From: a virus
Taxonomy: Duplodnaviria > Heunggongvirae > Uroviricota > Caudoviricetes
Strand: one strand, 5' to 3'
DNA length: 36,850 nucleotides
Virus record (IMG/VR): IMGVR_UViG_2778261418_000018
Location: 1 to 36,850 of that record
Both the position numbers and the translations under genes were made by a program. Below, piece by piece: positions 776-36,850 of this stretch; within the stretch, counting starts at the first letter, position 1; each line of letters begins with the position of its first letter. Below the pieces are notes generated by a model that searched no databases, had not been told where the DNA came from, and worked only from the letters and a program-made list of their open reading frames with translations.

Positions 776-993
776 CTGAGAGAAGACAAATTCGTTAGAT
801 TTACTGTTTTTCTGCTGCCTCGAATGCTGATGTCTGCAGCACTGATAATAACTCTATCTCTTTGATATAGATCTTTTTTTTGATGAATTGCACGACATAT
901 TATCGTGATGGCACCTTCTTGTTAAAGGTGTTGTACTCCTCATCTCGATTTTATGATGTGGGCTATGATTGGTTAGTAATAGAGTGTATCGGT

Positions 994-1275
994 ATGCGAT
1001 GTGGTTTATTAATGGCAATCTGCCTTTGTTTGGTATCTTTTAGTGGGTATGCAGCAACAGGAAAGTCAGATGCTCAGATCAAGAAAGAAATAATTAAAGA
1101 ATCCATTGAATCTTATCCAGGCAATTGTGCGTGTCCTTATAATCATGCAAGGAATGGTAGTAGATGTGGTGGGCGCAGTGCATATAGCCGTACTGGAGGG
1201 TATGACGTGGTATGTTATGAGAGTGATGTTACCGATGAAATGATCCGGCAATGGAAGCAGGAGAATGCTGAGTAA
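994..1275 (+). CDS. small secreted cysteine-containing protein (signal peptide MRCGLLMAICLCLVSFSGYA; motif GNCACPY...GSRCGGRSAYSRTGGY...CY)
   Basis: ORF 880..1275; N-terminal part of the long ORF is not protein-like, so the internal ATG at 994 preceding a hydrophobic signal sequence is preferred; own terminator downstream. Confidence 0.45.
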   Translation: MRCGLLMAICLCLVSFSGYAATGKSDAQIKKEIIKESIESYPGNCACPYNHARNGSRCGGRSAYSRTGGYDVVCYESDVTDEMIRQWKQENAE

Positions 1276-3365: not shown

Positions 3366-4550
3366 ATGAGTGAAACTCGTTTTCATGGTGCCCGTGTTAC
3401 GGAAAATACCGACCTGGTAACAGCGATTAACGATGTTGATTCCAGCGTTATCGGTATCGTGGCAACGGCGGATGATGCGGACGCGAAGCTGTTCCCGCTG
3501 AACAAGCCCACACTGCTGACCCGCGTTAATGACGTGCTGGGAAAATGCGGGACAACGGGGACGCTTTATCGTGCGCTTAAGGCAATCGCAGACCAGGTGA
3601 GCACAAAGGTGATCGTCGTTCGCGTGGCTGAACACAAAGAAGAAGACGGAAAGACGCAGGATCAACTGGTTATCGGTGGTTCTGAGGATGACGGCAGCTA
3701 TACGGGGATGTATGCGCTGCTTGTTGCAGAGCAGGATGAAAGCATCGGATACCGTCCGCGTATTCTGGCAGCGCCGGAGCTGGACACGGAGGCTGTAACA
3801 AAATCCCTGTGCGTGATTGCGGGTAAACTGCGCGCGTTTGTGTATGCCTCATGTCATGGCTGTAACACGATGGCTGAGGCAATTACCTACCGCCAGAAAT
3901 TCAACGAACGTGAGGTGATGCTCTTATGGCCGGACTTCATCGCCTACAACCCGAAAAGTGGCAAAAACGAAACGTTCCCCGCGCCTGCCTATGCGTGCGG
4001 CCTTCGTGCGTACATTGACCATGAGCAGGGCTGGCACAAATCGCTGTCCAACGTTCCGGTTAAAAATGTGCTGGGGATGTCCAGGCATGTGTTCTGGTCG
4101 TTGCAGGCCGAAGACAGTGATGCCAACAGCCTCAACAACAAAGAAATCACGACCATTATTCGTCGCAACGGGTTCCGCTTCTGGGGCAACCGCACACCGG
4201 AAACGAACGCCTACATCTTTGAGGTGTATACCCGAACCGCACAGGTGCTGGCTGATTCAATTGCGGAAGCGCAGTTTGAAACCATCGACAGTCCACTGAC
4301 GCCTGCGAACGTGAAAGATGTTATCAGTGCCATCAGGGCAAAACTGGATTCACTGGTTACTGCCGGGAAACTGATTGGGGCGTCGTGCTGGTATGACGTG
4401 GTGGATAACGGCACCACGAATTTACGTCAGGGGCGCGTGCGTATTCGCTACAAATATACGCCTGTTCCCCCGCTGGAAGACATGGAGCTTTACCAGTCGT
4501 TTACTGATGAATTCTTTGGTCCCGCATTTGCGGTGCTGGGAGGTGCCTGA
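3366..4550 (+). CDS. FI: tail sheath protein FI
   Basis: 394 aa, P2 FI-like size and sequence (MSETRFHGARVTENTDLVTAINDVD...). Confidence 0.9.
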   Translation: MSETRFHGARVTENTDLVTAINDVDSSVIGIVATADDADAKLFPLNKPTLLTRVNDVLGKCGTTGTLYRALKAIADQVSTKVIVVRVAEHKEEDGKTQDQLVIGGSEDDGSYTGMYALLVAEQDESIGYRPRILAAPELDTEAVTKSLCVIAGKLRAFVYASCHGCNTMAEAITYRQKFNEREVMLLWPDFIAYNPKSGKNETFPAPAYACGLRAYIDHEQGWHKSLSNVPVKNVLGMSRHVFWSLQAEDSDANSLNNKEITTIIRRNGFRFWGNRTPETNAYIFEVYTRTAQVLADSIAEAQFETIDSPLTPANVKDVISAIRAKLDSLVTAGKLIGASCWYDVVDNGTTNLRQGRVRIRYKYTPVPPLEDMELYQSFTDEFFGPAFAVLGGA

Positions 4551-5062
4551 TGGCTGTACCAAAACATCTTCGCTTTTTTACGTTGTTTGTGGATGGTGAA
4601 AACGAAGTGGGTAAAGTGACATCCGTCACGCCGCCCAAACTGACGCGCAAAACCGACAGTTATCGTGGTGGTGGCATGATGGGGGCGGTAAGTATTGATC
4701 TCGGTCTGGACGACTCCGCGCTTGATGCGAGCTTTGTCATGGGGGGAGCTGTTCGTGCACTGTTCCTTAAGTATGGCGGCACGATTGACGGCACGCTGCT
4801 GCGTTTTGCGGGTGAATATTACACCGATGCAGAAAGCGATCTGTATGAAATCGAGATGCGCGGGCGTGTGACGGAAATTGATATGGGGGAGGCCAAACAG
4901 GGCGAAGCCACATCACACACATACGCTGTCAAAAACACCTACTACAAGCTGAGTGTTAACGATCGCCCGCTGTGGGAAATCGACCTGTTGAACCACATCT
5001 ACCGGAAGGACGGCAAGGACATTGTGCCTGACCGCATTCGCTCCGCGCTTGGGCTTGGCTGA
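4550..5062 (+). CDS. FII: tail tube protein FII
   Basis: 170 aa; start overlaps FI stop (TGATG); P2 FII-like. Confidence 0.9.
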   Translation: MAVPKHLRFFTLFVDGENEVGKVTSVTPPKLTRKTDSYRGGGMMGAVSIDLGLDDSALDASFVMGGAVRALFLKYGGTIDGTLLRFAGEYYTDAESDLYEIEMRGRVTEIDMGEAKQGEATSHTYAVKNTYYKLSVNDRPLWEIDLLNHIYRKDGKDIVPDRIRSALGLG

Positions 5063-5117
5063 TAAGTAATATGCAGGCGACGCAGTGCGTCGCCTCTGAC
5101 TGAAAAGGAGACAACTG

Positions 5118-5492
5118 ATGAAAGACATCGATACTGAAACCCGGAATAACACCGTAGCGGATGATGTGACGGCAGGTGAGGATATGGCTGTCGAACGTGG
5201 TGTAAAACTTTCCCGGCCAATTGAGCGTGGTGCCGAAAAAATCACATATGTGGAAATCACCGGGGCTATTGAGCAGGCGGGATCCCTGCGTGGTCTGTCG
5301 CTGTCTGATGTGCTGAATCTGAAAGCGGATACCATGTTCACGCTGTTGCCTCGCGTGACCTCGCCACGACTGGATGAAGTGATGATTAAAAAAATGTCGT
5401 CACGCGATTTTATTCAGTTGTGCGCTGCGGCTGTAAATTTTATGAGCGAGCCAGACTCTGGCGCGAAGAGCGTGCAGGAGACGGCAGCGTAA
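5118..5492 (+). CDS. E: tail assembly chaperone E (0-frame product); E+E' made by -1 frameshift into the frame open 5390..5656
   Basis: Position between FII and T; overlapping -1 frame ORF with no good start; slippery candidates AAATTTT (5435..5441) and A7 (5388..5394). Confidence 0.7.
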   Translation: MKDIDTETRNNTVADDVTAGEDMAVERGVKLSRPIERGAEKITYVEITGAIEQAGSLRGLSLSDVLNLKADTMFTLLPRVTSPRLDEVMIKKMSSRDFIQLCAAAVNFMSEPDSGAKSVQETAA

Positions 5493-5633
5493 TCACCCTG
5501 GTGTGCTTTGAGCACATCGAAGATCTGGTGGCGGATATTGCCGCCATTTTTAACTGGTCGCCCGCCGAAATCTTCATGATGACGCCCGGCGAAGTGGTTA
5601 GCTGGCGTGAGCGGGCGGCACTTCGCAGCGGGA

Positions 5634-8450
5634 ATGCAGATAATGAAGACTCTTGACATCCGGGTCGCTTTCAGCGCCGTTGACAGGCTGACCCGGCCTG
5701 CCGAAAACGCCCGCCGCCTGATGGGGCAGTTTGGTGACTCCATCCAGCGAACGCAGGGGGCGATCAAAAATCTCGAGCGTCAGGCGCGTTCATTTGAGCG
5801 CGCCCGCGACGCTGTCAGTAAAGCGGATGCGGGTATCGTGAAAGCACGACGCCAGCTTAACGCCCTTAATCAGTTACAACGCACGGGTACAGTGCTCAGC
5901 GAAAAACAACAAAAGCTGATGCAGCAGTTAAGCACCCGGCTTGAACGCCTGAATGAATCGCGCACACGGGAAATTCAGAAAATGCGGGAGCTTGGCGGAG
6001 AGCTGAAACGCCACGGCATTTCCCTGACAGGCAGCGATAACACCATCCAGCAGGCCATCAGACGCACCGAACAGTACAACAACCAGCTTGAACGCGAACG
6101 GCAGGCGCTTGCGCGTGTAACGCGGGCGCGTGAGCGGTATTCGCGCGCGCAGGAAACAGCGGGAAAACTGAAAACAGGTGGTGCGCTGGCAATTGGTGCG
6201 GCAGCGGCGGGCGGCTATGCTGCCGGGCGTTTTTTGCAGCCTGCGATCGGGTTCGGGAAAGAAATGTCCCGCGTTCAGGCACTGACGCGAATCGACAAAA
6301 ACAGCCCGCAGTTTAAGGCGCTGCGTGAGCAGGCGTTAAAACTTGGCTCTGAAACGCAGTTCACCGCAGGCGATGCCGCCAGTGGGCAGGCATTTCTTGC
6401 AATGGCTGGCTTCACACCACAGGCCATTCAGGCTGCGCTCCCTGGCGTACTGAGCATGGCAACGGCTGGCGGTATGGACCTCGGTGAGACGGCGGATATT
6501 GGCTCAAATATTCTGACGCAGTTCGGTCTTTCTGCTGACCAGATGGGCCGGGTCGGCGACACACTCACCGCAGCGTTTACCCGTACCAACACTGACCTTC
6601 GCGCACTGGGTGAAACCATGAAATATGCAGGTCCGGTGGCGGGTAAGCTGGGAATATCGCTGGAGCAGGCCGCAGCGATGGCGGGCGTGCTGGCGAATAT
6701 GGGTATCAGGGGGAGTGATGCTGGTACGGCAATGCGTGCCAGCCTGGCTCGTCTGGCATCACCGCCAAAGGCGGCAGCAGAGGCGCTGAAAGAGCTTGGC
6801 GTGTCTGTCTCGGATGCCGGGGGCAAAATGCGCCCGATGGAGGATGTGCTGGCTGACCTTTATAAAGCTACCCGCAAATACGGGGAAGTTGACCGGGTAT
6901 CGTTCTTTAAGGACATTGCCGGAGAAGAGGCTTTCACATCATTTATGGCCCTCGTTGATGCGGCAGGTGACGGCTCCTTACCCAAACTGAGAAAAGAACT
7001 TGAAGGCGCGCGCGGTGAGGCTGAACGCACGGCAAAGGTTATGGCCAACAACCTTGACGGCGATTTGAAATCACTCAGCAGTGCATGGGAAGGGTTGCGC
7101 ATCCGCATTGCAGATCTGATTGACGGTCCGCTGCGTTCTGTCACGCAGTGGCTCACGCGTGTGGTATCAAAGGTGACGGCGCTGGCGCAGGCCCATCCCG
7201 CACTGACGCGCCAGCTACTGATTGCAGGCGGTGCACTGCTGGCAATGACTGCAACGGTTGGCTCGTTGTCGCTGGCTATTGGTGTGCTTGCTGGCCCGCT
7301 GGCAAAACTGCGTCTTGGTTTTTCCCTCCTGACCGGATCAATGAATGCTGTCAGGGTTCTGCCAGCACTATGGGGAATGGTGACGGGTTCCGTTTCTTTA
7401 CTGGGAGGCGCTATCGGGGCGTTGTTCAGTCCGGTTGGTCTTATCGTGGCTGCGCTTGCCGGAGCTGCCGTTCTTATCTGGAAATACTGGGATCCCATCA
7501 GGGCATTTTTTGCCGGGGTGTTCAGCGGGATTATGGAAAGGCTGACCCCGTTGCGCGAAACCTTTGAACGGTTTGGTCCTGTTTTTGACGCAATCGGAAG
7601 CGGGATCAGCCAGGTGTTTAACTGGTTTAAATCGCTGTTGTCACCGATGGAGTCCAGCAAGGAAACGCTGGATAAATGCACCAGTGCTGGCGAGGTATTC
7701 GGCAACGTTCTTGGTGGCGCGTTACAGCTTGTTCTGACGCCAGCAAAAATGTTGCTGGATACGCTGGCGTGGATACTTGAAAAACTCGGTGTGCTTCCGG
7801 ATGAAGCGGAAAGGACGAGAAAGAAAATCGAAGACGCACAGCGTGCGGCCATTCTTCAGGACAAGGTTGCCTTGCTTCAGGGTGACCTGGCGAAAATCAA
7901 TCCGCCGAAGCCTGTGGAAAATGGCAATGGCACCGGAGGTGATAAACCCAAAGACAACAAACCGCTCACAGACAGCAATACCGGTACGCTACGCAGACTC
8001 AGCAAAATTGCTGATAACACAGGTAAGCTGGTTGATGAGACGAAAAAACGCATTGGCCCCGGCGATATTGTCTTTAAGAACCTGCCCCGCGCACTTGCCG
8101 TTCGTGGGGAGTGGCAGGAGCGGAAGATTGCGCAGGTCAGTAAGCCTGCCCCCGCAATTAATATCACGCCTGTGGTTCCGGCCCCGCTGCCTCCGGCGCT
8201 GGTCCCTGTTGTTGCGGCCAGCTCCCGCCCGGTGGCGGAGGCCATACGATCGCCAGTGGCATCAGCCCCAACACCTTCGCGTAACCGGGAACCTGTTGCC
8301 TCAGGATTTGGCGATGAAATTCATGTTCATCTGCATAACGTTGTTACGCAGAATCCCCGCGAACTGGCGAAACTGGTCGGTGAAATGGTCAGGGCAGAAA
8401 TGGAACGGCGCGCCCGTGCTGGGCGTGGCAGTTTTTACGATAAAGATTGA
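5634..8450 (+). CDS. T: tail tape measure protein T
   Basis: ~940 aa, coiled-coil N-terminus, Gly/Ala-rich hydrophobic central region; ORF track start 5607 is GTG, ATG at 5634 or 5643 also possible. Confidence 0.85.
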   Translation: MQIMKTLDIRVAFSAVDRLTRPAENARRLMGQFGDSIQRTQGAIKNLERQARSFERARDAVSKADAGIVKARRQLNALNQLQRTGTVLSEKQQKLMQQLSTRLERLNESRTREIQKMRELGGELKRHGISLTGSDNTIQQAIRRTEQYNNQLERERQALARVTRARERYSRAQETAGKLKTGGALAIGAAAAGGYAAGRFLQPAIGFGKEMSRVQALTRIDKNSPQFKALREQALKLGSETQFTAGDAASGQAFLAMAGFTPQAIQAALPGVLSMATAGGMDLGETADIGSNILTQFGLSADQMGRVGDTLTAAFTRTNTDLRALGETMKYAGPVAGKLGISLEQAAAMAGVLANMGIRGSDAGTAMRASLARLASPPKAAAEALKELGVSVSDAGGKMRPMEDVLADLYKATRKYGEVDRVSFFKDIAGEEAFTSFMALVDAAGDGSLPKLRKELEGARGEAERTAKVMANNLDGDLKSLSSAWEGLRIRIADLIDGPLRSVTQWLTRVVSKVTALAQAHPALTRQLLIAGGALLAMTATVGSLSLAIGVLAGPLAKLRLGFSLLTGSMNAVRVLPALWGMVTGSVSLLGGAIGALFSPVGLIVAALAGAAVLIWKYWDPIRAFFAGVFSGIMERLTPLRETFERFGPVFDAIGSGISQVFNWFKSLLSPMESSKETLDKCTSAGEVFGNVLGGALQLVLTPAKMLLDTLAWILEKLGVLPDEAERTRKKIEDAQRAAILQDKVALLQGDLAKINPPKPVENGNGTGGDKPKDNKPLTDSNTGTLRRLSKIADNTGKLVDETKKRIGPGDIVFKNLPRALAVRGEWQERKIAQVSKPAPAINITPVVPAPLPPALVPVVAASSRPVAEAIRSPVASAPTPSRNREPVASGFGDEIHVHLHNVVTQNPRELAKLVGEMVRAEMERRARAGRGSFYDKD

Positions 8451-25534: not shown

Positions 25535-27760
25535 TTACGAACGAATAGGAATTGATGTTTGCGGTTGAATTGGCACGAGCACCTGATTATAAGTACGTAA
25601 AATTTCGTTATACAGGTCTTGGTGCTTTGATGCCTTAATGGTAATTATAAGAGCATACTTGATTTTTTCTGCCTTATGGCTGGCTATGCTTGCACCGGCC
25701 TCACGAGCGTTATAATGAATGTCAAATACAGGATTTTTTAGAGTTGAACCTAGCATGTTCTTCGAATTATGTAAGACGGTCTCCCACTTGCCCATGTCAG
25801 AACGTCGCTCACTTTCAGTTGAATATTTGGCCAGTTCAAAGAATCCCTTGGTTTCAGCATTTTGTTTTCCGTCTTTGATTTTTGAATCATTTGGCCGGAA
25901 TGTCACTTCCAAACCAGCTTTTGTATAGGACGCTGGGTCTTGTGGATCAGTGGTTGTTGCATAACAGAAAGTTGCCGCTAAGTTTATTCTACCTTTCAAG
26001 CCACCTTCAGGTATTGGAAGAGAAGCGCGTAAGTATTTTCCTGGTTTCAATTCACCTTGGTAGACGATACGGGCAACACCATCAGGGCTGACTATAATGT
26101 CGTTCAAGTCTTCAGGCAGTTTTCCCCAGCCAACTTCTGTACAAGGATGATCAAGCTGTTTTGACGCATGAATTAACAAAGCTTTGATTGCTAGTAGGCT
26201 CAAATCGTTCCCTAAAATTGCCCGAACACCAACAGCTGCTCGTAAGGCGTAAGGAGAGGCAAAGCTTGTTCCTAGCTGGGGTATGATTACAGGCTTCTTA
26301 CCTTTACCTAAAACATGAAAGTACTCGTCTGTGTCACCACCAAACGCAACTAAATCCGGTTTCATCACGCCAGGACTTCTGCCTGGCCCAATGGCGCTAT
26401 ATGGTGCTCGTTTCCATTCCGTATCATTAACTGTATCACAAGCACCAACAGCAAGAGCATTAACGCAATCGGCTGGTACTTGAATTCTTGCATTACCAGA
26501 CTTGCGATCCATTTCTCCATTGTTGCCAACAGCAACAGTCATTAATGTTTCACCATCACTTAACAAATCATCAATAACGGAAGTCCATGCATGAACTTCC
26601 GTATCTTCAATTGGTAGGTCTGGACCTAAACTTAGATTGATAAACTGATACTGGCGAGACAACAATACCTCTTCAATAAAGCCCAAAGTTCGATATAGTT
26701 CCAGCGGATCTTCTTGGCAGGTCTTGTTGTCCAAAACTCTTAAGTTATCAATATAAGAGTATGGTCTTTTCGCTTCCGATTTATTACTTATTGGTCCAAA
26801 TAAAAAGGCTGAAGACACAGCTAAACCATGCTCTAAACCGTCTGGATCATCCTCTGCATGATCGTCCAAAACTCTATAGGATTTTAACCATGGCGATATA
26901 GCGTGCTCTGATGGTAAACCACCATCAAGAATCGCAACTTTTATTTCTGAAGATACGGGGCCCTCAGCAGGTAATTTACACTGAGCTAAAGGACCGTAGT
27001 TCCTTTGTATTGGTCTAATCCCACGCAATCTTGGAACCGGTCTTATTACTCGTACAAATGTAAATTTCGCAAGCTTACTAATAGTAATTCTATCGGCCTG
27101 GATTGGCACGAACCATAATGTACCAGCGGTAAAAGCTAATGAAGTATGTACTTTGATGTTCAAATTTGATGCAAACTGAACAAATTGTTGCTGAACCAAG
27201 TCTTGTTCATTATCTGGCAGTAAATGAACACCAACCTCAAAATACGAAGAATCCTGCTCACCAATGGTAATAATACGCTCTTCGGGTAAATAGGCATCGA
27301 ACCGTTCTATGCGTGCAAAATCAATCGCTTCGTCAGAAAACTCTTTGAGTCCTGACACCCAATGAGGTAACTCTTTGAAGGATTCTCTTTTACCAGCAAC
27401 AAACATTTGTGTCGTAGTTACTTCTGACACAGTAACTTTTCGCTTCCAGCTTTGAGGCGTAATTTTTACCGTCCTGCTGCCAATAGACGTTAACCCGGTA
27501 GACTTAAGCATTTTTGCAGGAAAAAAAGAGCGTGCAATATAGCTTGGATTCAACGTCAACTTAGCCACAGCATAATCATAAGGACATGCCTGACTGGGTA
27601 AATCATCAAAATTTTCTATAGTAGATGCAATTTGCGGCAATAAACGTTGTTTCGATTCGTAAAGAGAATAAACCTCAGCTTTTCCGGGCACTCTTTTAGG
27701 ACCAGGAATATCGCTGGTTAATAATTCGCCGCGTCCAATCAGAAAATTAGTTTTCGCCAT
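25535..27760 (-). CDS. S8 family subtilisin-like serine peptidase with large N- and C-terminal extensions (candidate IetS-like)
   Basis: Catalytic motifs in order VAILDGG (Asp), HGLAVSS (His), AVGNNGE (oxyanion Asn), GTSFASP (Ser); RBS AGGAG 8 nt before ATG. Confidence 0.8.
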   Translation of the reverse strand: MAKTNFLIGRGELLTSDIPGPKRVPGKAEVYSLYESKQRLLPQIASTIENFDDLPSQACPYDYAVAKLTLNPSYIARSFFPAKMLKSTGLTSIGSRTVKITPQSWKRKVTVSEVTTTQMFVAGKRESFKELPHWVSGLKEFSDEAIDFARIERFDAYLPEERIITIGEQDSSYFEVGVHLLPDNEQDLVQQQFVQFASNLNIKVHTSLAFTAGTLWFVPIQADRITISKLAKFTFVRVIRPVPRLRGIRPIQRNYGPLAQCKLPAEGPVSSEIKVAILDGGLPSEHAISPWLKSYRVLDDHAEDDPDGLEHGLAVSSAFLFGPISNKSEAKRPYSYIDNLRVLDNKTCQEDPLELYRTLGFIEEVLLSRQYQFINLSLGPDLPIEDTEVHAWTSVIDDLLSDGETLMTVAVGNNGEMDRKSGNARIQVPADCVNALAVGACDTVNDTEWKRAPYSAIGPGRSPGVMKPDLVAFGGDTDEYFHVLGKGKKPVIIPQLGTSFASPYALRAAVGVRAILGNDLSLLAIKALLIHASKQLDHPCTEVGWGKLPEDLNDIIVSPDGVARIVYQGELKPGKYLRASLPIPEGGLKGRINLAATFCYATTTDPQDPASYTKAGLEVTFRPNDSKIKDGKQNAETKGFFELAKYSTESERRSDMGKWETVLHNSKNMLGSTLKNPVFDIHYNAREAGASIASHKAEKIKYALIITIKASKHQDLYNEILRTYNQVLVPIQPQTSIPIRS

Positions 27761-27783
27761 ACATACTCCTTATCTATGCTGTA

Positions 27784-28905
27784 TTACATTTTTTGACTGT
27801 ATTTTCTAATTGTATCCCTACTGACTCCGGTTAAGTCTGATATGGCATGCTGGGATAATTTAGAATTTCTTTTTAGAGTAACTGCAATTTCTTTACGTTC
27901 ATTCCTGTCTAATTCTGATAAACCATCTTTAATGAACGACCCAATCAACTCTTCATCTGAGGAAATACCTAAAGCGACCGAACGTCGGAATTTGTTGATA
28001 GAACGCTCAATATTACTAAAAGATTCATTTTTGAACATAATAGCCAGTAGATCTATCCAACGTGCAAAAATCGCGTAGTCGGGACCCGAAAAGCGTTTAA
28101 TTGCTTCTTTAATACTTTCGCTATCTGGCTTCTCAAAATTGAGCACTAAATCAAAACGTCTCCATAGTGCTGGATCAATCAACTCAGCGAAGTTAGTTGC
28201 AGCAAGTAGCAAACTAGAAGACGGCCATTCGTCAACCTCCTGGAGTATCACGGTAACAAGTCTTTTTAATTCTCCAACATCAGAATCATCACTTCTCTTT
28301 TTGGCGATTGAATCAATTTCATCTAACAGAAGAACGCACGGCCCTTTCTTCGCAAAATCTAGAGCTGCCCGAAGGTTATTTCCGCTTTTGCCCAGATAGC
28401 TGCTCATTACTGCCGTTAAATCAAGAACGTAAAAAGGAACCCCTAATTTCTGAGCTAACCAGCTTGCCGTAAGTGTTTTACCTACACCCGGAGGGCCAAC
28501 AAAAATGGCAGAGCGTGTTGGTTGTAAGCCGAGAGTCTTGAGGCGATCGATGTGCTTCCGCTCAAGAATAATTTGATCCAGTGAGTCTTCTATCTGACTG
28601 GACAGTAGAGGTTTGCTCACAATCTTTTCATTTGGTGCTTTAAGCAAGGTAAGCCTTGACTCCTCGTCCACAGGCATGGTTTGAGGCAGCGCTTGTTTTG
28701 GTGCGGTAACCTTACGCAGGCTTTGTGCAGGCTTTTGCGGTTTATTTCGTAGATAAAGATCAAGCTGCTCGGATAGAGCAGGCATAGTTTCCCGATATTT
28801 ACGCACCAAGCGAGCGACATATAACCGAACGTCATCATACTGTTCAGTTATTACCAGTCTAACTAGTTGGGCTAAATCTGACTGAATACCACCTAAGTCG
28901 CCCAT
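27784..28905 (-). CDS. AAA+ ATPase (classic clade) with possible C-terminal HTH (candidate IetA-like)
   Basis: Walker A GPPGVGKT, Walker B VLLLDEID, sensor-1 LLLAATN, RRFD; C-terminal LSQHAISDLTGVSRDTIRKY. Confidence 0.8.
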   Translation of the reverse strand: MGDLGGIQSDLAQLVRLVITEQYDDVRLYVARLVRKYRETMPALSEQLDLYLRNKPQKPAQSLRKVTAPKQALPQTMPVDEESRLTLLKAPNEKIVSKPLLSSQIEDSLDQIILERKHIDRLKTLGLQPTRSAIFVGPPGVGKTLTASWLAQKLGVPFYVLDLTAVMSSYLGKSGNNLRAALDFAKKGPCVLLLDEIDSIAKKRSDDSDVGELKRLVTVILQEVDEWPSSSLLLAATNFAELIDPALWRRFDLVLNFEKPDSESIKEAIKRFSGPDYAIFARWIDLLAIMFKNESFSNIERSINKFRRSVALGISSDEELIGSFIKDGLSELDRNERKEIAVTLKRNSKLSQHAISDLTGVSRDTIRKYSQKM

Positions 28906-34395: not shown

Positions 34396-34800
34396 ATGAA
34401 AAATGATATTGGTCAGCGGTTGCGTGAGGAAAGGGAAAGATTGGGACTTAGTCAAGTTGCTATGAGCGACATTGGTGGAGTCAAAAAGCTAACTCAGCTT
34501 AGATATGAGAAAGGAGATAGCTTTCCTGATGCTGCGTATTTGGCAGCGCTGTCTCGTTTTGGCCTTGATGTTCAGTATGTTGTGTTGGGAATTCACTCAC
34601 CTGAAACTTATAACGATGATGAGCAGGAGCTGATTACTCGCTTTCGAGCAGCTTCGTTAGATGTGAAAAACGCCGTGATCGGGGCTTTAAAAGGTGCGAT
34701 CAGTGAAAAGGAAACTCAGCCATCAGGACGTGAGTTAAATATTTCTGGTGGTAATAACCGTATCGCTGGTCGTGACTATAACGAAACTAAGGGTAGGTGA
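34396..34800 (+). CDS. immunity repressor, XRE/CI-type HTH
   Basis: IGQRLREERERLGLSQVAMSDIGGVKKLTQLRYEKG HTH; position upstream of int as for P2 C. Confidence 0.8.
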   Translation: MKNDIGQRLREERERLGLSQVAMSDIGGVKKLTQLRYEKGDSFPDAAYLAALSRFGLDVQYVVLGIHSPETYNDDEQELITRFRAASLDVKNAVIGALKGAISEKETQPSGRELNISGGNNRIAGRDYNETKGR

Positions 34801-34815
34801 TAGTAGGGAGGTGAC

Positions 34816-35466
34816 ATGGCCGTCAACTCAAACGGTTCAAACAATCGCGTTGCTGGACGTGATTTTCACGAAAAGAATATTCAGATAGCGCGATATGATG
34901 GTTCTCATACCGTCAATATCGCAATCCCTTCGAATAATGATGATGACGATCGCCCTTTGCTTAAGGCTCAGCGTAAGGAGTTAAATAGCTTGGTTGCTGC
35001 TATTGCAGAAGCTAGCAATACTGAAGCGTTTATTATTTGGCAAAAAGTACATGCGGAGATTGGTGTAGCTGGTATTGATGATATGGCAGTAAATCAATAT
35101 AAAACAGCGGAGAGTTTTCTGCATGCAATGCTTGAGCGATGTAAAGATCATGATGCCTGTAAGACTCTTGTAAGTTTATTACTACGTAACAGTGAAGACT
35201 GTGGACTTCGACAAAAACTTCTGCGGTATTGCCATATCAATTTCGGTACAGGACGTTTAAACGATCTTACTCGTTCTCAGTTACAGTCTGCATTGTCGTG
35301 GTTAGAGCAACAATCGGTATCAAGCCATACAGAGAATTCGACCTTACCAGAAGTCCGACTTCGTGCTTCAGAATTAATCCGACTTTATCCAAAAGAAATA
35401 ATATTCTTTATCTGCGTAGGGGTTTTGGTAGGCGGTGCCATTTCTAGGGTGTTTTTTAATTTGTAA
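34816..35466 (+). CDS. membrane-anchored protein of unknown function (C-terminal TM helix), lysogenic-operon cargo
   Basis: 216 aa; C-terminus EIIFFICVGVLVGGAISRVFF; N-terminus repeats a motif from the repressor C-terminus. Confidence 0.6.
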   Translation: MAVNSNGSNNRVAGRDFHEKNIQIARYDGSHTVNIAIPSNNDDDDRPLLKAQRKELNSLVAAIAEASNTEAFIIWQKVHAEIGVAGIDDMAVNQYKTAESFLHAMLERCKDHDACKTLVSLLLRNSEDCGLRQKLLRYCHINFGTGRLNDLTRSQLQSALSWLEQQSVSSHTENSTLPEVRLRASELIRLYPKEIIFFICVGVLVGGAISRVFFNL

Positions 35467-35495
35467 TCTTACTTGAGCTAAATTGAGGTAATGAT

Positions 35496-35843
35496 ATGAA
35501 AGTAAAAAAGGTTCAACTATTAGTTACTTTTTTATCTATGTTTTCTTTTTCCGCCGTCGCAATGCCTTTTAAAAATATTGAACGTGAGAGTTTCAATGGG
35601 GTATGGCCATTTAATACTGATGAGGTTCAATTACAGTGTCTTGATGGTAATCCTTATGTGATGAATTTTGACGATAATAAGTTATATGCGCTTACAGGTT
35701 TGGCTCGAATAAAAGGTAAAACATTTGGTGCGTTACCGTTAGATAACAATAATCCATTTTGGCTAGATAATGATGCCGCCCCAGGGTTAAAAAAGAGTCT
35801 GGGGGATGTCACTAAGGCTGCATTTGATTTATGTGATAAGTAA
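35496..35843 (+). CDS. secreted/periplasmic small protein, YebY (DUF2511)-like
   Basis: Signal peptide MKVKKVQLLVTFLSMFSFSAVA; two Cys; W-FN--EV-L-C--GN-YV pattern resembles YebY as recalled. Confidence 0.55.
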   Translation: MKVKKVQLLVTFLSMFSFSAVAMPFKNIERESFNGVWPFNTDEVQLQCLDGNPYVMNFDDNKLYALTGLARIKGKTFGALPLDNNNPFWLDNDAAPGLKKSLGDVTKAAFDLCDK

Positions 35844-35848
35844 CTAAA

Positions 35849-36850
35849 ATGTCGGTTCGTAAGATTCCATCAGGTAAATGGCTTTGCGAATGTTATCCCT
35901 ACGGGGCATCGGGAAAACGCATTCGTAAACAGTTTGCGACAAAAAGTGAGGCGCTCTCTTATGAGCGCCGTTTAATGAATAGTAGAGTTGGAGAGGAGTT
36001 TCAAGATGGTTCTGGTCCTCGTCTTTCTGAGTTGATTGCTCGTTGGTTTGAGATGTACGGTAAAACCTTGTCCTCTGGTGCAGAGCGCAAAGTCAAACTT
36101 GAGGCGATTTGTTCCAGGCTGGGAGATCCATTTGCTTCTCAGTTTGACAAAAATATGTTTGCTACTTATAGGGAAAGAAGGCTATCAGGAGAATGGAATC
36201 CCAAGGGGAAGAAAAAACTTAGTGAAGCAACCGTTAATCGCGAGCAGTCATATCTACATGCTGTTTTTGCCGAACTGAAGCGACTTGGGGAGTGGTCTGG
36301 TGAAAACCCCCTGACTGGTATTCGCAAGTTTCGTGAGGAAGAAAAGGAACTGGCGTTTCTGTATGTAGATGAGATTGAACGCCTTCTGATTGCGTGTGAT
36401 GAGTCACGGAATAAAGATTTGGGGGTTGTTGTCCGTATTGGGCTTGCGACTGGTGCTCGGTGGAGTGAAGCAGAAGGATTAAAGCAATCTCAAGTACTGC
36501 CCGGTCGAATCACATTTGTTAAAACTAAAGGAAAGAAGAACCGCACTGTACCGATTTCACCTCAATTGCAGGCTATGCTTCCTAAAAAACGAGGAGCGCT
36601 ATTTTCACCATGTTATGAGGCTTTTGACGCTGCAATTAAGAGAGCGAAGATCGAGCTTCCTGATGGGCAATTAACTCATGTGCTACGTCACACTTTTGCC
36701 AGTCATTTTATGATGCGGGGCGGAAATATTCTTGTGTTGCAAAAAATACTGGGGCATAGCGATATAAAAATGACTATGCGTTATGCGCATTTTGCTCCAG
36801 GTCATTTAGAGGCTGCTGTTGAATTGAACCCTTTTGACAATAGAGGGTAA
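35849..36850 (+). CDS. int: tyrosine integrase (P2 Int family)
   Basis: 333 aa; catalytic residues in ATGARWSE (Arg), HVLRHTFAS (His-x-x-Arg), MRYAH (Tyr); stop codon at window end. Confidence 0.9.
   Translation: MSVRKIPSGKWLCECYPYGASGKRIRKQFATKSEALSYERRLMNSRVGEEFQDGSGPRLSELIARWFEMYGKTLSSGAERKVKLEAICSRLGDPFASQFDKNMFATYRERRLSGEWNPKGKKKLSEATVNREQSYLHAVFAELKRLGEWSGENPLTGIRKFREEEKELAFLYVDEIERLLIACDESRNKDLGVVVRIGLATGARWSEAEGLKQSQVLPGRITFVKTKGKKNRTVPISPQLQAMLPKKRGALFSPCYEAFDAAIKRAKIELPDGQLTHVLRHTFASHFMMRGGNILVLQKILGHSDIKMTMRYAHFAPGHLEAAVELNPFDNRG

What the first reader, a model, noticed from the sequence alone, without database searches (positions are those of the whole stretch)
34816..35843. Two cargo genes between the repressor and integrase: a C-terminally membrane-anchored protein and a secreted YebY-like protein
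Seen: between the CI-type repressor (34396..34800) and int (35849..) are a 216-aa ORF ending in a TM helix (EIIFFICVGVLVGGAISRVFF) and a 115-aa ORF with a signal peptide and two cysteines. Both are closely spaced, on the repressor strand and AT-rich. Established: in P2 and 186 the repressor is followed directly by int, and genes co-transcribed with the repressor are expressed in the lysogen. Inference: a lysogenic-conversion, superinfection-exclusion or envelope-defence pair; the function is not assignable from sequence.
Basis: partly seen in the sequence, partly recalled or inferred. Interest (0 to 1): 0.7.

Follow-up and report, generated by a model that had tools for sequence, protein, structure and literature searches.

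The report
Repressor-mimicking membrane protein plus cargo gene
Of the two genes between this E. coli prophage's repressor and integrase, the first encodes a membrane-anchored protein that always accompanies the repressor and starts with a copy of the repressor's tail peptide, so it probably belongs to the lysogeny switch, while the second is an exchangeable periplasmic YebY-like accessory gene.

Summary
The window is a P2-like (Xuanwuvirus) E. coli prophage, and the two-gene stretch is present in 511 of 5,426 complete E. coli genomes.

The two genes are not a co-evolving cargo pair.

ORF216 has a disordered head, a Flk_N helical domain and a C-terminal tail anchor. It is tied to the repressor. 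In 38 of 43 non-redundant families of membrane proteins with this head motif, the gene 2-29 nt upstream ends with the same peptide that the membrane protein begins with (…NRxAGRD[YF]xE…). Three of the other five have such a repressor a little further upstream. Mu-like prophages carry different peptide variants, and these also match within each repressor/partner pair (permutation p<5e-5). A repressor without the tail has no such partner.

ORF115 is a secreted YebY/DUF2511 protein with Cys48 and Cys113 conserved. It sits in a variable slot before int that holds 0-3 unrelated genes in related phages. This is the known repressor-integrase hotspot type.

Best reading: ORF216 is a membrane-tethered partner or mimic of the repressor, and ORF115 is lysogen-expressed envelope cargo. 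The mechanism is inferred, not shown. I found no description of the tail/head module in the literature I searched.

The parts
34396..34800 (+). Prophage repressor (134 aa). It has an XRE-type HTH domain (about residues 1-65), two further helices (74-105) and a disordered C-terminal tail (106-134).
   Evidence: Weak Pfam HTH_31/HTH_3 hits and PHROG transcriptional regulator/repressor families. The AlphaFold2 model has pLDDT of about 90 for the HTH and about 48-51 for residues 101-134. It faces a divergent Arc-like and Cox-like early operon.
34735..34797 (+). Tail motif of the repressor: LNISGGNNRIAGRDYNETKGR.
   Evidence: It is conserved at the C-terminus of 49 of the 120 listed repressor homologues and of the repressors in related loci.
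34816..35466 (+). ORF216: a tail-anchored inner-membrane protein with a Flk_N-type helical domain. It is the conserved partner of the repressor.
   Evidence: phrog_5825 at 5.6e-101. Partial Flk hit at 4.9e-16, far below the equivalog cut-off. Homologues carry a precomputed PF27202 annotation, named Flk_N. AlphaFold2 model. Synteny with the repressor.
34822..34884 (+). Head motif of ORF216: VNSNGSNNRVAGRDFHEKNIQ. It is a copy of the repressor's tail peptide.
   Evidence: A degenerate 24-nt pattern for NR[VI]AGRD[FY] matches only at these two places in the window (2 found, 0.00 expected). A looser protein motif also occurs only in these two genes. N10, R11, G14, R15, D16 and E19 are invariant in 20 homologues. 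The head is disordered in the monomer model.
34960..35325 (+). Helical Flk_N region of ORF216 (about residues 49-170), made of two three-helix bundles.
35398..35457 (+). C-terminal transmembrane tail anchor of ORF216 (residues 195-214).
   Evidence: Hydropathy 2.36 and helix 192-214. Homologues end right after the hydrophobic stretch. Flk itself is cytoplasmic with a C-terminal anchor (PMC13344023).
35496..35843 (+). ORF115: a secreted YebY/DUF2511-family protein. It occupies a variable cargo slot.
   Evidence: Pfam PF10709 at 28.1 bits against a cut-off of 21. phrog_2950 at 1.7e-39. Matches solved YebY 7n0j at E=0.0038 over residues 35-113. C48 and C113 are at the positions of the YebY disulfide (PMC8689200). 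It has the lowest GC in the region, 0.353. The slot is variable.
35496..35564 (+). Predicted signal peptide of ORF115 (MKVKKVQLLVTFLSMFSFSAVA, followed by MP).
   Evidence: Read from the sequence and the hydropathy profile. No dedicated signal-peptide predictor was available.
35849..36850 (+). Tyrosine integrase. It starts 5 nt after the ORF115 stop codon and bounds the slot.
   Evidence: Pfam Int_N at 5.2e-32 and Phage_integrase at 2.4e-22.

Best explanation
The interval holds two different things. (1) ORF216 is not cargo. It is the second gene of a conserved two-gene immunity module, made of a repressor and a membrane-anchored partner. It sits in the inner membrane by a C-terminal tail anchor, with everything else in the cytoplasm. 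Its first ~20 residues (GxxNRxAGRD[FY]xE) copy the peptide at the end of the repressor's disordered tail. I infer that the two peptides either pair with each other or compete for the same binding site. Either way, the membrane protein would tether, titrate or protect the repressor and so tune immunity or the lysis-lysogeny switch. This is the same principle as SinI/SinR, where an antagonist shares the repressor's interaction segment, but here the partner is membrane-bound. (2) ORF115 is an exchangeable accessory gene in the hotspot just upstream of int. It encodes a disulfide-stabilised periplasmic YebY-family protein, made in the lysogen from the repressor transcript. It most probably acts in the envelope, either in superinfection exclusion like the periplasmic Glo of phage K139, or in binding a peptide antibiotic or metal as proposed for MlbQ and YebY. 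Shown here: the anatomy, the synteny, the shared and co-varying peptide, and the variability of the slot. Inferred: physical interaction, direction of regulation, and the function of ORF115.
For: Coupling to the repressor. All 9 species-level loci from the genome collection have an HTH repressor ending in …SGxGNRxAGRD[FY]NENKK directly before the ORF216 homologue. So do the viral-contig loci that could be scored. A motif-only scan of viral contigs found the same head on membrane proteins of other architectures: zinc ribbon plus 2 TM, or 2-3 TM without Flk_N. These also sit just after a repressor with the motif tail. Of 43 families (80% identity) of motif-headed membrane proteins, 38 have a motif-tailed ORF ending 2-29 nt upstream. 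Three of the other five have such a repressor 97-150 nt or two genes upstream.

Co-variation. Repressor homologues in Mu-like prophages have different tails (FNGDISGQFAGNQIINN; FHGAVSGGVAARDIINN; FHGSVGQSVAGSITN; GEGQIAGGNIYT). The membrane protein next to each begins with the matching variant. The mean tail-to-own-head score is 52.0 against 35.7±2.6 for shuffled partners. For nine different motif classes it is 43.6 against 27.8±3.2. Both give p<5e-5. A related repressor without the tail (P0378) has no motif-bearing neighbour.

Selection on the protein. The two copies are 10/21 identical in amino acids but only 35/63 in nucleotides. Six of the 10 identical residues use different codons, and there is no DNA repeat.

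Disordered peptides. Both peptides lie in regions of low model confidence, as expected for short linear motifs. The helical domain resembles peptide- and protein-binding three-helix modules.

ORF115. It is YebY-like. The slot is variable. A cI-int hotspot and a minor int-to-primase hotspot are described in P2-related phages (PMC9122126 and PMC13586616). The K139 lysogenic operon is cI-orf2-glo-int, and Glo is annotated there as periplasmic and involved in exclusion.
Against: No result here shows binding, membrane recruitment or any phenotype. The monomer AlphaFold2 models leave head and tail unstructured, and no complex could be predicted. Within the NRxAGRD class there is no residue-by-residue matching between tail and head: a Y tail often goes with an F head, and V with T or I. 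The co-variation is therefore at the level of motif classes. The permutation test does not correct for shared ancestry of the whole module. A shared third partner, such as a protease or antirepressor, would explain the data about as well as direct pairing. Co-transcription is inferred from spacing and the absence of a predicted terminator. For ORF115, no defence family matches and there is no homology to Glo. Chromosomal YebY has been linked to copper delivery, not to phages (PMC8689200).
Confidence: 0.45

Rival explanations
1. Decoy or shared-ligand model. The repressor tail and the ORF216 head do not touch each other. Both are recognised by the same third factor, for example a membrane or AAA+ protease (as the C-terminal tail of lambda CII is recognised by FtsH) or a phage antirepressor. 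ORF216 would then act as a competitive decoy that stabilises the repressor or sets an induction threshold.
For: The same peptide occurs on two co-expressed proteins, both times in disordered regions near a terminus. The membrane location would put the decoy next to membrane proteases. The partner architectures differ, yet the head peptide and membrane anchoring are always kept.
Against: The peptide differs between phages of the same host group: Pectobacterium carries both NRxAGRD-type and GQFAGNQIINN-type tails. It matches within each pair. A conserved host reader would not drive that; a phage-specific reader would be needed, and none was identified. There is no convincing SOS box and no recognisable antirepressor gene in the window.
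Confidence: 0.2
2. ORF216 and ORF115 act together as a lysogen-expressed envelope pair, one membrane protein and one periplasmic protein, for superinfection exclusion or lysogenic conversion. Their similarity in operon position to lambda cI-rexA-rexB would be the guide.
For: Both lie in the repressor transcription unit. Every prophage YebY-like gene examined follows a Flk_N gene, in E. coli, Klebsiella, Citrobacter and Rosenbergiella. K139 has a periplasmic exclusion protein at the same position.
Against: ORF216 homologues are far more widespread (at least 186 clusters) than ORF115 homologues (18 clusters). Most ORF216 homologues are followed by unrelated genes or none. ORF216 exposes essentially nothing to the periplasm, because its anchor ends at the C-terminus. 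Direct contact with a periplasmic protein is therefore unlikely. There are no PADLOC hits.
Confidence: 0.12
3. ORF216 is a stand-alone Flk-like effector. Like Flk (Fluke), it would act on the flagellar type III export gate and alter motility or flagellin export in lysogens. The motif shared with the repressor would be incidental.
For: Significant partial similarity to Flk residues 20-152 (E=4.9e-16). It has the same topology as Flk, cytoplasmic with a C-terminal anchor (PMC13344023). A profile search links the family to Flk-like proteins of 320-430 aa.
Against: The score is far below the Flk equivalog cut-off (58.9 against 353 bits). Partners in other phages keep the head peptide and membrane anchor but lack Flk_N altogether. 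Flk proteins lack the head motif. Strict linkage to repressors is unexplained by this model.
Confidence: 0.05
4. The tail/head similarity is a non-functional relic. It would come from a junction duplication when an ancestral gene was split, or from occasional gene conversion. ORF216 would then be an ordinary membrane moron of unknown role.
For: The two copies are adjacent and in the same orientation. In this window they are even in the same reading frame, separated by TGA TAG TAG.
Against: The motif residues are invariant across genera in both proteins, while synonymous sites differ and no DNA repeat remains. Divergent motif classes still match within pairs, which needs selection or repeated conversion. 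The frame relationship is not conserved in other loci.
Confidence: 0.1

Closest known systems
SinR/SinI (and SlrR/SlrA) of Bacillus subtilis
   Same: An XRE-type HTH repressor whose C-terminal interaction segment is also present in the product of the adjacent gene. That product binds the repressor through the shared residues and cancels its DNA binding (PMC3163267).
   Different: SinI is small and soluble, and the shared segment forms helical hooks. Here the partner is membrane-anchored and the shared segment is a short peptide predicted to be disordered, not helical. No sequence homology and no evidence of binding.
Vibrio phage K139 lysogenic operon cI-orf2-glo-int, and the cI-int hotspot of K139-like phages
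   Same: A P2-related phage with two genes between repressor and integrase, transcribed from the lysogenic promoter. The gene next to int encodes a small periplasmic protein annotated as involved in phage exclusion. The interval is described as a defence hotspot (PMC9122126).
   Different: K139 cI is a CI-family repressor with a Phage_CI_C domain and no tail motif. orf2 is a BRCT protein, not Flk_N. Glo has no detectable similarity to ORF115. BRCT proteins do occur as alternative slot genes in relatives of this window.
Lambda cI-rexA-rexB, and sie genes of P22
   Same: Membrane or exclusion proteins co-transcribed with the repressor and expressed in lysogens (my own knowledge).
   Different: No homology (PADLOC negative). 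Rex proteins share no peptide with CI. Rex is dispensable cargo, whereas ORF216-type genes are as conserved as the repressor.
Flk (Fluke/RflH), regulator of the flagellar export switch
   Same: [quoted passage not shown]
   Different: Flk is 333 aa, chromosomal, and lacks the NRxAGRD head. ORF216 scores 58.9 bits against an equivalog cut-off of 353 and is prophage-borne and linked to a repressor.
YebY (E. coli AZY operon) and MlbQ (lantibiotic self-resistance), family DUF2511/PF10709
   Same: ORF115 passes the Pfam threshold, aligns to solved YebY, and has a signal peptide and both disulfide cysteines at positions 48 and 113. The occurrence of yebY homologues between an integrase-type recombinase and a CI-type HTH gene in Enterobacteriaceae was already noted (PMC8689200).
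   Different: It is not in a yobA-yebZ-yebY operon and is only distantly related to chromosomal YebY (E=0.0038). No function has been shown for the prophage subfamily.
Repressor plus 'membrane protein' gene pairs annotated in Burkholderia P2-like phages (KS5 genes 11 and 12, phiK96243)
   Same: Same gene order, repressor followed by a putative phage-encoded membrane protein on the same strand (PMC3091744).
   Different: Annotation only, with no analysis of a shared peptide. I did not check these sequences for the motif.

Membership tests
DUF2511 / YebY family (PF10709) - for ORF115 | Profile match above Pfam's gathering score | tested here: met
   28.1 bits against a cut-off of 21, E=2.7e-6, profile positions 3-87 of 87. 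Homologues are annotated PF10709/YebY.
DUF2511 / YebY family (PF10709) - for ORF115 | Two strictly conserved cysteines (Cys48-Cys113 disulfide in E. coli YebY) | tested here: met
   The only two cysteines of ORF115 are C48 and C113. Both align with YebY's cysteines in the 7n0j alignment. Formation of the bond itself cannot be tested here.
DUF2511 / YebY family (PF10709) - for ORF115 | Extracytoplasmic location via a signal peptide | tested here: inconclusive
   The N-terminus has basic, hydrophobic and AVA|M features, read by eye with a hydropathy profile. No signal-peptide predictor and no experiment.
DUF2511 / YebY family (PF10709) - for ORF115 | Fold: four-stranded antiparallel sheet surrounded by four helices | not tested
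Chromosomal YebY orthologue (AZY operon) | Encoded in a yobA-yebZ-yebY operon | tested here: not met
   The neighbours are a Flk_N protein and a phage integrase.
Flk (NCBIfam PRK10715 equivalog) - for ORF216 | Full-length match above the curated cut-off | tested here: not met
   58.9 bits against a cut-off of 353. Only residues 37-169 match Flk positions 20-152 of 339.
Flk_N domain family (PF27202) - for ORF216 | Presence of the Flk_N domain | tested here: met
   The 98%-identical cluster representative, and nearly all homologues, carry a precomputed PF27202 annotation, named Flk_N. The model is absent from the local Pfam copy, so it was not rescanned directly.
Flk-like topology - for ORF216 | Cytoplasmic protein with a single C-terminal membrane anchor | tested here: met
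   One hydrophobic segment at residues 195-213 of 216. Helix 192-214 in the model. Homologues end at the hydrophobic stretch. The orientation is inferred from Flk (PMC13344023).
SinR/SinI-type repressor-antagonist pair | Adjacent genes; the repressor's C-terminal segment is shared with the partner | tested here: met
SinR/SinI-type repressor-antagonist pair | The shared segment forms helical hooks that build a heterodimer and block DNA binding | tested here: not met
   The shared segments are non-helical and of low confidence in the monomer models.
Known anti-phage defence or exclusion systems (PADLOC; K139 Glo) | Homology to a described defence or exclusion protein | tested here: not met
   No PADLOC hit for ORF216 or ORF115. 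ORF115 against Glo gives E=7.2.
Repressor-integrase variable hotspot of P2-related phages | Conserved flanks with unrelated, exchangeable genes between them | tested here: met
   Between the Flk_N gene and int there are about ten unrelated gene families and 0-3 genes per locus. Literature: PMC9122126 and PMC13586616.

The most novel reading that the evidence does not exclude
Many temperate phages of Proteobacteria, both P2-like and Mu-like, would use a previously unrecognised two-component immunity module. It consists of an XRE repressor with a disordered C-terminal address peptide and a membrane-anchored protein that displays the same, phage-specific peptide at its cytoplasmic N-terminus. Through homotypic peptide pairing or competition, the membrane protein would sequester or release the repressor. 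That would link the lysis-lysogeny switch to the state of the cell membrane, or provide stoichiometric titration that sharpens the switch.
Probability: 0.3. Interest if true: 0.8.

Novelty: new variant of a known kind. Interest (0 to 1): 0.6.

Why it matters
About 9% of complete E. coli genomes (511 of 5,426), including O26 and O103 strains, carry this two-gene stretch, annotated only as 'membrane protein' and 'DUF2511'. If the membrane protein really works with the repressor, then a large group of non-SOS P2-like and Mu-like prophages has a switch component that current models (C/Cox, CI/Apl/Tum, Mu c/Ner) do not include. It would give a concrete handle on how such prophages are induced or stabilised. 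The matching-peptide rule also offers a simple sequence signature for finding and pairing these modules. It separates a conserved regulatory gene from the true cargo slot, which matters when mining prophage hotspots for new defence genes. The prophage YebY subfamily gives a second, phage-related context in which to study the function of DUF2511.

Tried and rejected
1. AlphaFold2 on the natural in-frame repressor-to-ORF216 translation, to see whether tail or head docks on the helical domain. No multimer prediction is available.
2. Fold search against afdb50. The library is not installed. The BFVD search gave only weak matches (best E=3e-3, ORF6C, Bro-N-containing and RecT proteins).
3. Profile search of ORF216 against PDB sequences found nothing significant.
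4. PADLOC on ORF216 and ORF115 gave no hits.
5. Homology of ORF115 to the K139 exclusion protein Glo: none.
6. A DNA-level explanation for the duplicated motif, such as a repeat or recombination substrate, was rejected. No direct repeat was found, and identical residues mostly use different codons.
7. Read-through or frameshift fusion of repressor and ORF216 was rejected. There are three consecutive stops here, and the frame relationship is not conserved in other loci.
8. Search for an SOS box or antirepressor. The single CTGT-N8-ACAG match lies inside gene A and is at chance level.
9. Residue-level co-variation within the NRxAGRD class was not evident by inspection. Only class-level co-variation is supported.
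10. The original K139 control-region paper (PMC93736) is not held. I relied on the GenBank annotation and on papers that cite it.
11. Literature searches for a described repressor/membrane-partner module, or for Flk-like prophage proteins, found nothing relevant. The search covered only the held library.
Full report
**Context.** The window is a P2-like prophage of E. coli. It is 98% identical over the immunity-integrase end to Escherichia phage 520873 (Peduoviridae, Xuanwuvirus). It lies between the glyW-cysT-leuZ tRNA genes, which are at the left end of the window, and yecA. On the + strand the order is repressor (34396-34800), ORF216 (34816-35466), ORF115 (35496-35843) and int (35849-36850). 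On the other strand an Arc-like gene and a Cox-like gene begin the early operon.

**Checking the observation.**
- ORF216 has one hydrophobic segment, at its very end (residues 195-213).
- ORF115 has a signal-peptide-like N-terminus and two cysteines, C48 and C113.
- The genes are 15, 29 and 5 nt apart. No terminator-like site was found on the + strand, and the only promoter-like match there is weak and lies inside ORF115.
- GC falls from 0.442 (repressor) to 0.407 (ORF216) and 0.353 (ORF115), then returns to 0.446 in int. The window average is 0.513.
- The two-gene stretch occurs in 511 of 5,426 complete E. coli genomes, including O26:H11 strain 11368. There it is annotated 'membrane protein' and 'DUF2511 domain-containing protein'.

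**ORF115.** It passes Pfam's DUF2511 threshold (28.1 bits against 21). It aligns with the solved E. coli YebY structure 7n0j (E=0.0038). Its two cysteines are at the positions of the YebY Cys48-Cys113 disulfide.

[quoted passage not shown] The family assignment and the genomic context are therefore not new. The function is unknown.

**ORF216: the protein.**
- It belongs to phrog_5825.
- Residues 37-169 match the N-terminal part of Flk (E=4.9e-16), far below the Flk equivalog cut-off.
- Its homologues carry Pfam PF27202, named Flk_N.
- The AlphaFold2 model (mean pLDDT 72) has a disordered head (1-45), two three-helix bundles (50-110 and 112-170), a variable linker and a terminal TM helix.

**The unexpected feature.** The head of ORF216 (VNSNGSNNRVAGRDFHEKNIQ) repeats the end of the repressor (LNISGGNNRIAGRDYNETKGR).
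- A degenerate DNA pattern for NR[VI]AGRD[FY] occurs exactly twice in the 36.8-kb window, against 0.00 expected.
- A looser protein motif finds only these two genes.
- The similarity is maintained at the protein level. The copies are 10/21 identical in amino acids and 35/63 in nucleotides. Six of the ten identical residues use different codons, and no DNA repeat is detectable.
- The motif residues are invariant in 20 ORF216 homologues from many genera and are conserved at the C-terminus of the repressor family.
- The repressor model shows an HTH domain, two further helices and a low-confidence tail from about residue 106 that carries the motif.

**Comparative evidence: the repressor and ORF216 form a module.**
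- In all nine species-level genome loci a motif-tailed HTH repressor immediately precedes the ORF216 homologue.
- The same holds in the viral-contig loci that could be scored.
- A scan of viral contigs for the motif alone, with no reference to ORF216, found it at residues 8-20 of many membrane proteins. These are of three architectures: Flk_N plus tail anchor, zinc ribbon plus two TM, and two or three TM only. Nearly all sit just downstream of a motif-tailed repressor.
- After clustering at 80% identity, 38 of 43 such families have a motif-tailed ORF ending 2-29 nt upstream. Three of the five exceptions have one slightly further away.

**Comparative evidence: the peptide co-varies.** Repressor homologues with different tails occur in Mu-like prophages of Pectobacterium, Gilliamella and Pseudomonas and in metagenomes. 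In each case the next gene encodes a membrane protein, usually with Flk_N, whose N-terminus carries the same variant. Examples:
- tail …FHGAVSGGVAARDIINN with head MQEFQGNVDGGVAGRDIVN
- tail …FHGSVGQSVAGSITN with head MSQDFHGEVGQAAGGDINN

Own-partner similarity exceeds shuffled-partner similarity: 52.0 against 35.7±2.6 for 22 pairs, and 43.6 against 27.8±3.2 for nine motif classes. Both give p<5e-5. A related repressor that lacks the tail has no motif-bearing neighbour. The permutation test is not phylogeny-corrected. Within the main class I saw no residue-level matching.

**The slot before int.** The gene between ORF216 and int is exchangeable. Depending on the phage, the slot holds one of the following:
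- a DUF2511 gene
- a ~100-aa acidic protein
- a BRCT/WYL-like protein of ~290 aa
- a different ~292-aa protein
- two-TM proteins of ~243 aa
- a zinc-ribbon protein plus a coiled-coil tail-anchored protein
- other small secreted proteins
- nothing

Other E. coli alleles of ORF216 are followed by an acidic protein or by no ORF. Conversely, prophage YebY-like genes in Klebsiella, Citrobacter and Rosenbergiella all sit in this same slot. This matches published descriptions: a cI-int defence hotspot in K139-like Vibrio phages (PMC9122126) and a minor int-to-primase hotspot in P2-like phages (PMC13586616). K139 itself has cI-orf2(BRCT)-glo-int, transcribed from the lysogenic promoter, with Glo annotated as a periplasmic exclusion protein. 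Glo is not homologous to ORF115.

**Interpretation.** ORF216 is best read as the membrane-anchored second component of the immunity module, not as cargo. A phage-specific peptide shared between a repressor's disordered tail and the cytoplasmic head of a co-expressed membrane protein suggests two possibilities. The two peptides may pair, which would tether or titrate the repressor. Or they may compete for one ligand, which would make ORF216 a decoy.

The nearest mechanistic precedent is SinI/SinR, where the antagonist shares the repressor's interaction residues (PMC3163267). The structural details differ, and nothing here demonstrates binding. The pair-specific variation argues against a conserved host reader and slightly favours direct pairing or a phage-encoded reader. 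I found no SOS box or recognisable antirepressor gene.

ORF115 is most simply a lysogen-expressed periplasmic accessory protein. By analogy with Glo and MlbQ, an envelope-protective role is the best guess, held with low confidence. That role could be exclusion of incoming phage DNA or binding of a peptide toxin.

**Novelty.** The YebY-like gene and the hotspot are members of known kinds. The repressor/membrane-partner module with matching tail and head peptides is not described in anything I could find. The bare gene order 'repressor, membrane protein' has been annotated in Burkholderia P2-like phages (PMC3091744). I rate the whole finding as a new variant of a known kind, with moderate to high interest that depends on experimental confirmation.

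Noticed in passing
window 25535-28905 (- strand): An IetA (AAA ATPase, 373 aa, PADLOC 1e-77) plus IetS (subtilase, 741 aa, PADLOC 2.9e-51) defence pair. It occupies the classical P2 hotspot between the portal/terminase genes and replication gene A.
   Followed up: partly
L001 (Escherichia phage 520873, NC_049344) 4500-6542: In the only closely related phage record, ORF216 is broken into three pieces and int is annotated as two fragments. ORF216 and ORF115 are not annotated at all there. This is probably due to sequencing frameshifts.
   Followed up: no
L220 767-2801 (Salmonella enterica contig): Three tandem paralogous HTH repressor genes precede the Flk_N gene. Two have the NRVAGRDYNEKK tail and one has a truncated tail. 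A 440-aa gene and int follow.
   Followed up: no
L208-L219 (Pectobacterium, Gilliamella, Pseudomonas aeruginosa, metagenomes): The same repressor plus motif-matched membrane partner module occurs in Mu-like transposable prophages, which have an rve transposase, a small Ner-sized gene and holin/SLT genes nearby. The module therefore crosses phage families.
   Followed up: partly
L055, L068-L070, L006, L072 slot genes; L226 2194-3099 (K139 orf2): BRCT-domain proteins recur as alternative occupants of the slot before int, some with a weak WYL-like match or a PADLOC PDC-S48 match. K139 orf2, at the equivalent place, is also a BRCT protein.
   Followed up: partly
window 880-1275 (+ strand): A 131-aa ORF with a TTG start and an internal signal-peptide-like stretch (…LLMAICLCLVSFSGYA) followed by a cysteine-rich part. 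It lies between the tRNA genes and the ogr-like zinc-finger gene (1796-2056, - strand). It has no Pfam hit, and may be another moron at the attachment-site end.
   Followed up: no
window 34798-34815: The repressor and ORF216 are in the same reading frame, separated by three consecutive stop codons (TGA TAG TAG) and GGA GGT GAC. The frame relation is not conserved in other loci.
   Followed up: yes
window 35841-35851: int starts 5 nt after the ORF115 stop codon, with no obvious Shine-Dalgarno sequence. Integrase translation may therefore be coupled to whichever gene occupies the slot.
   Followed up: no
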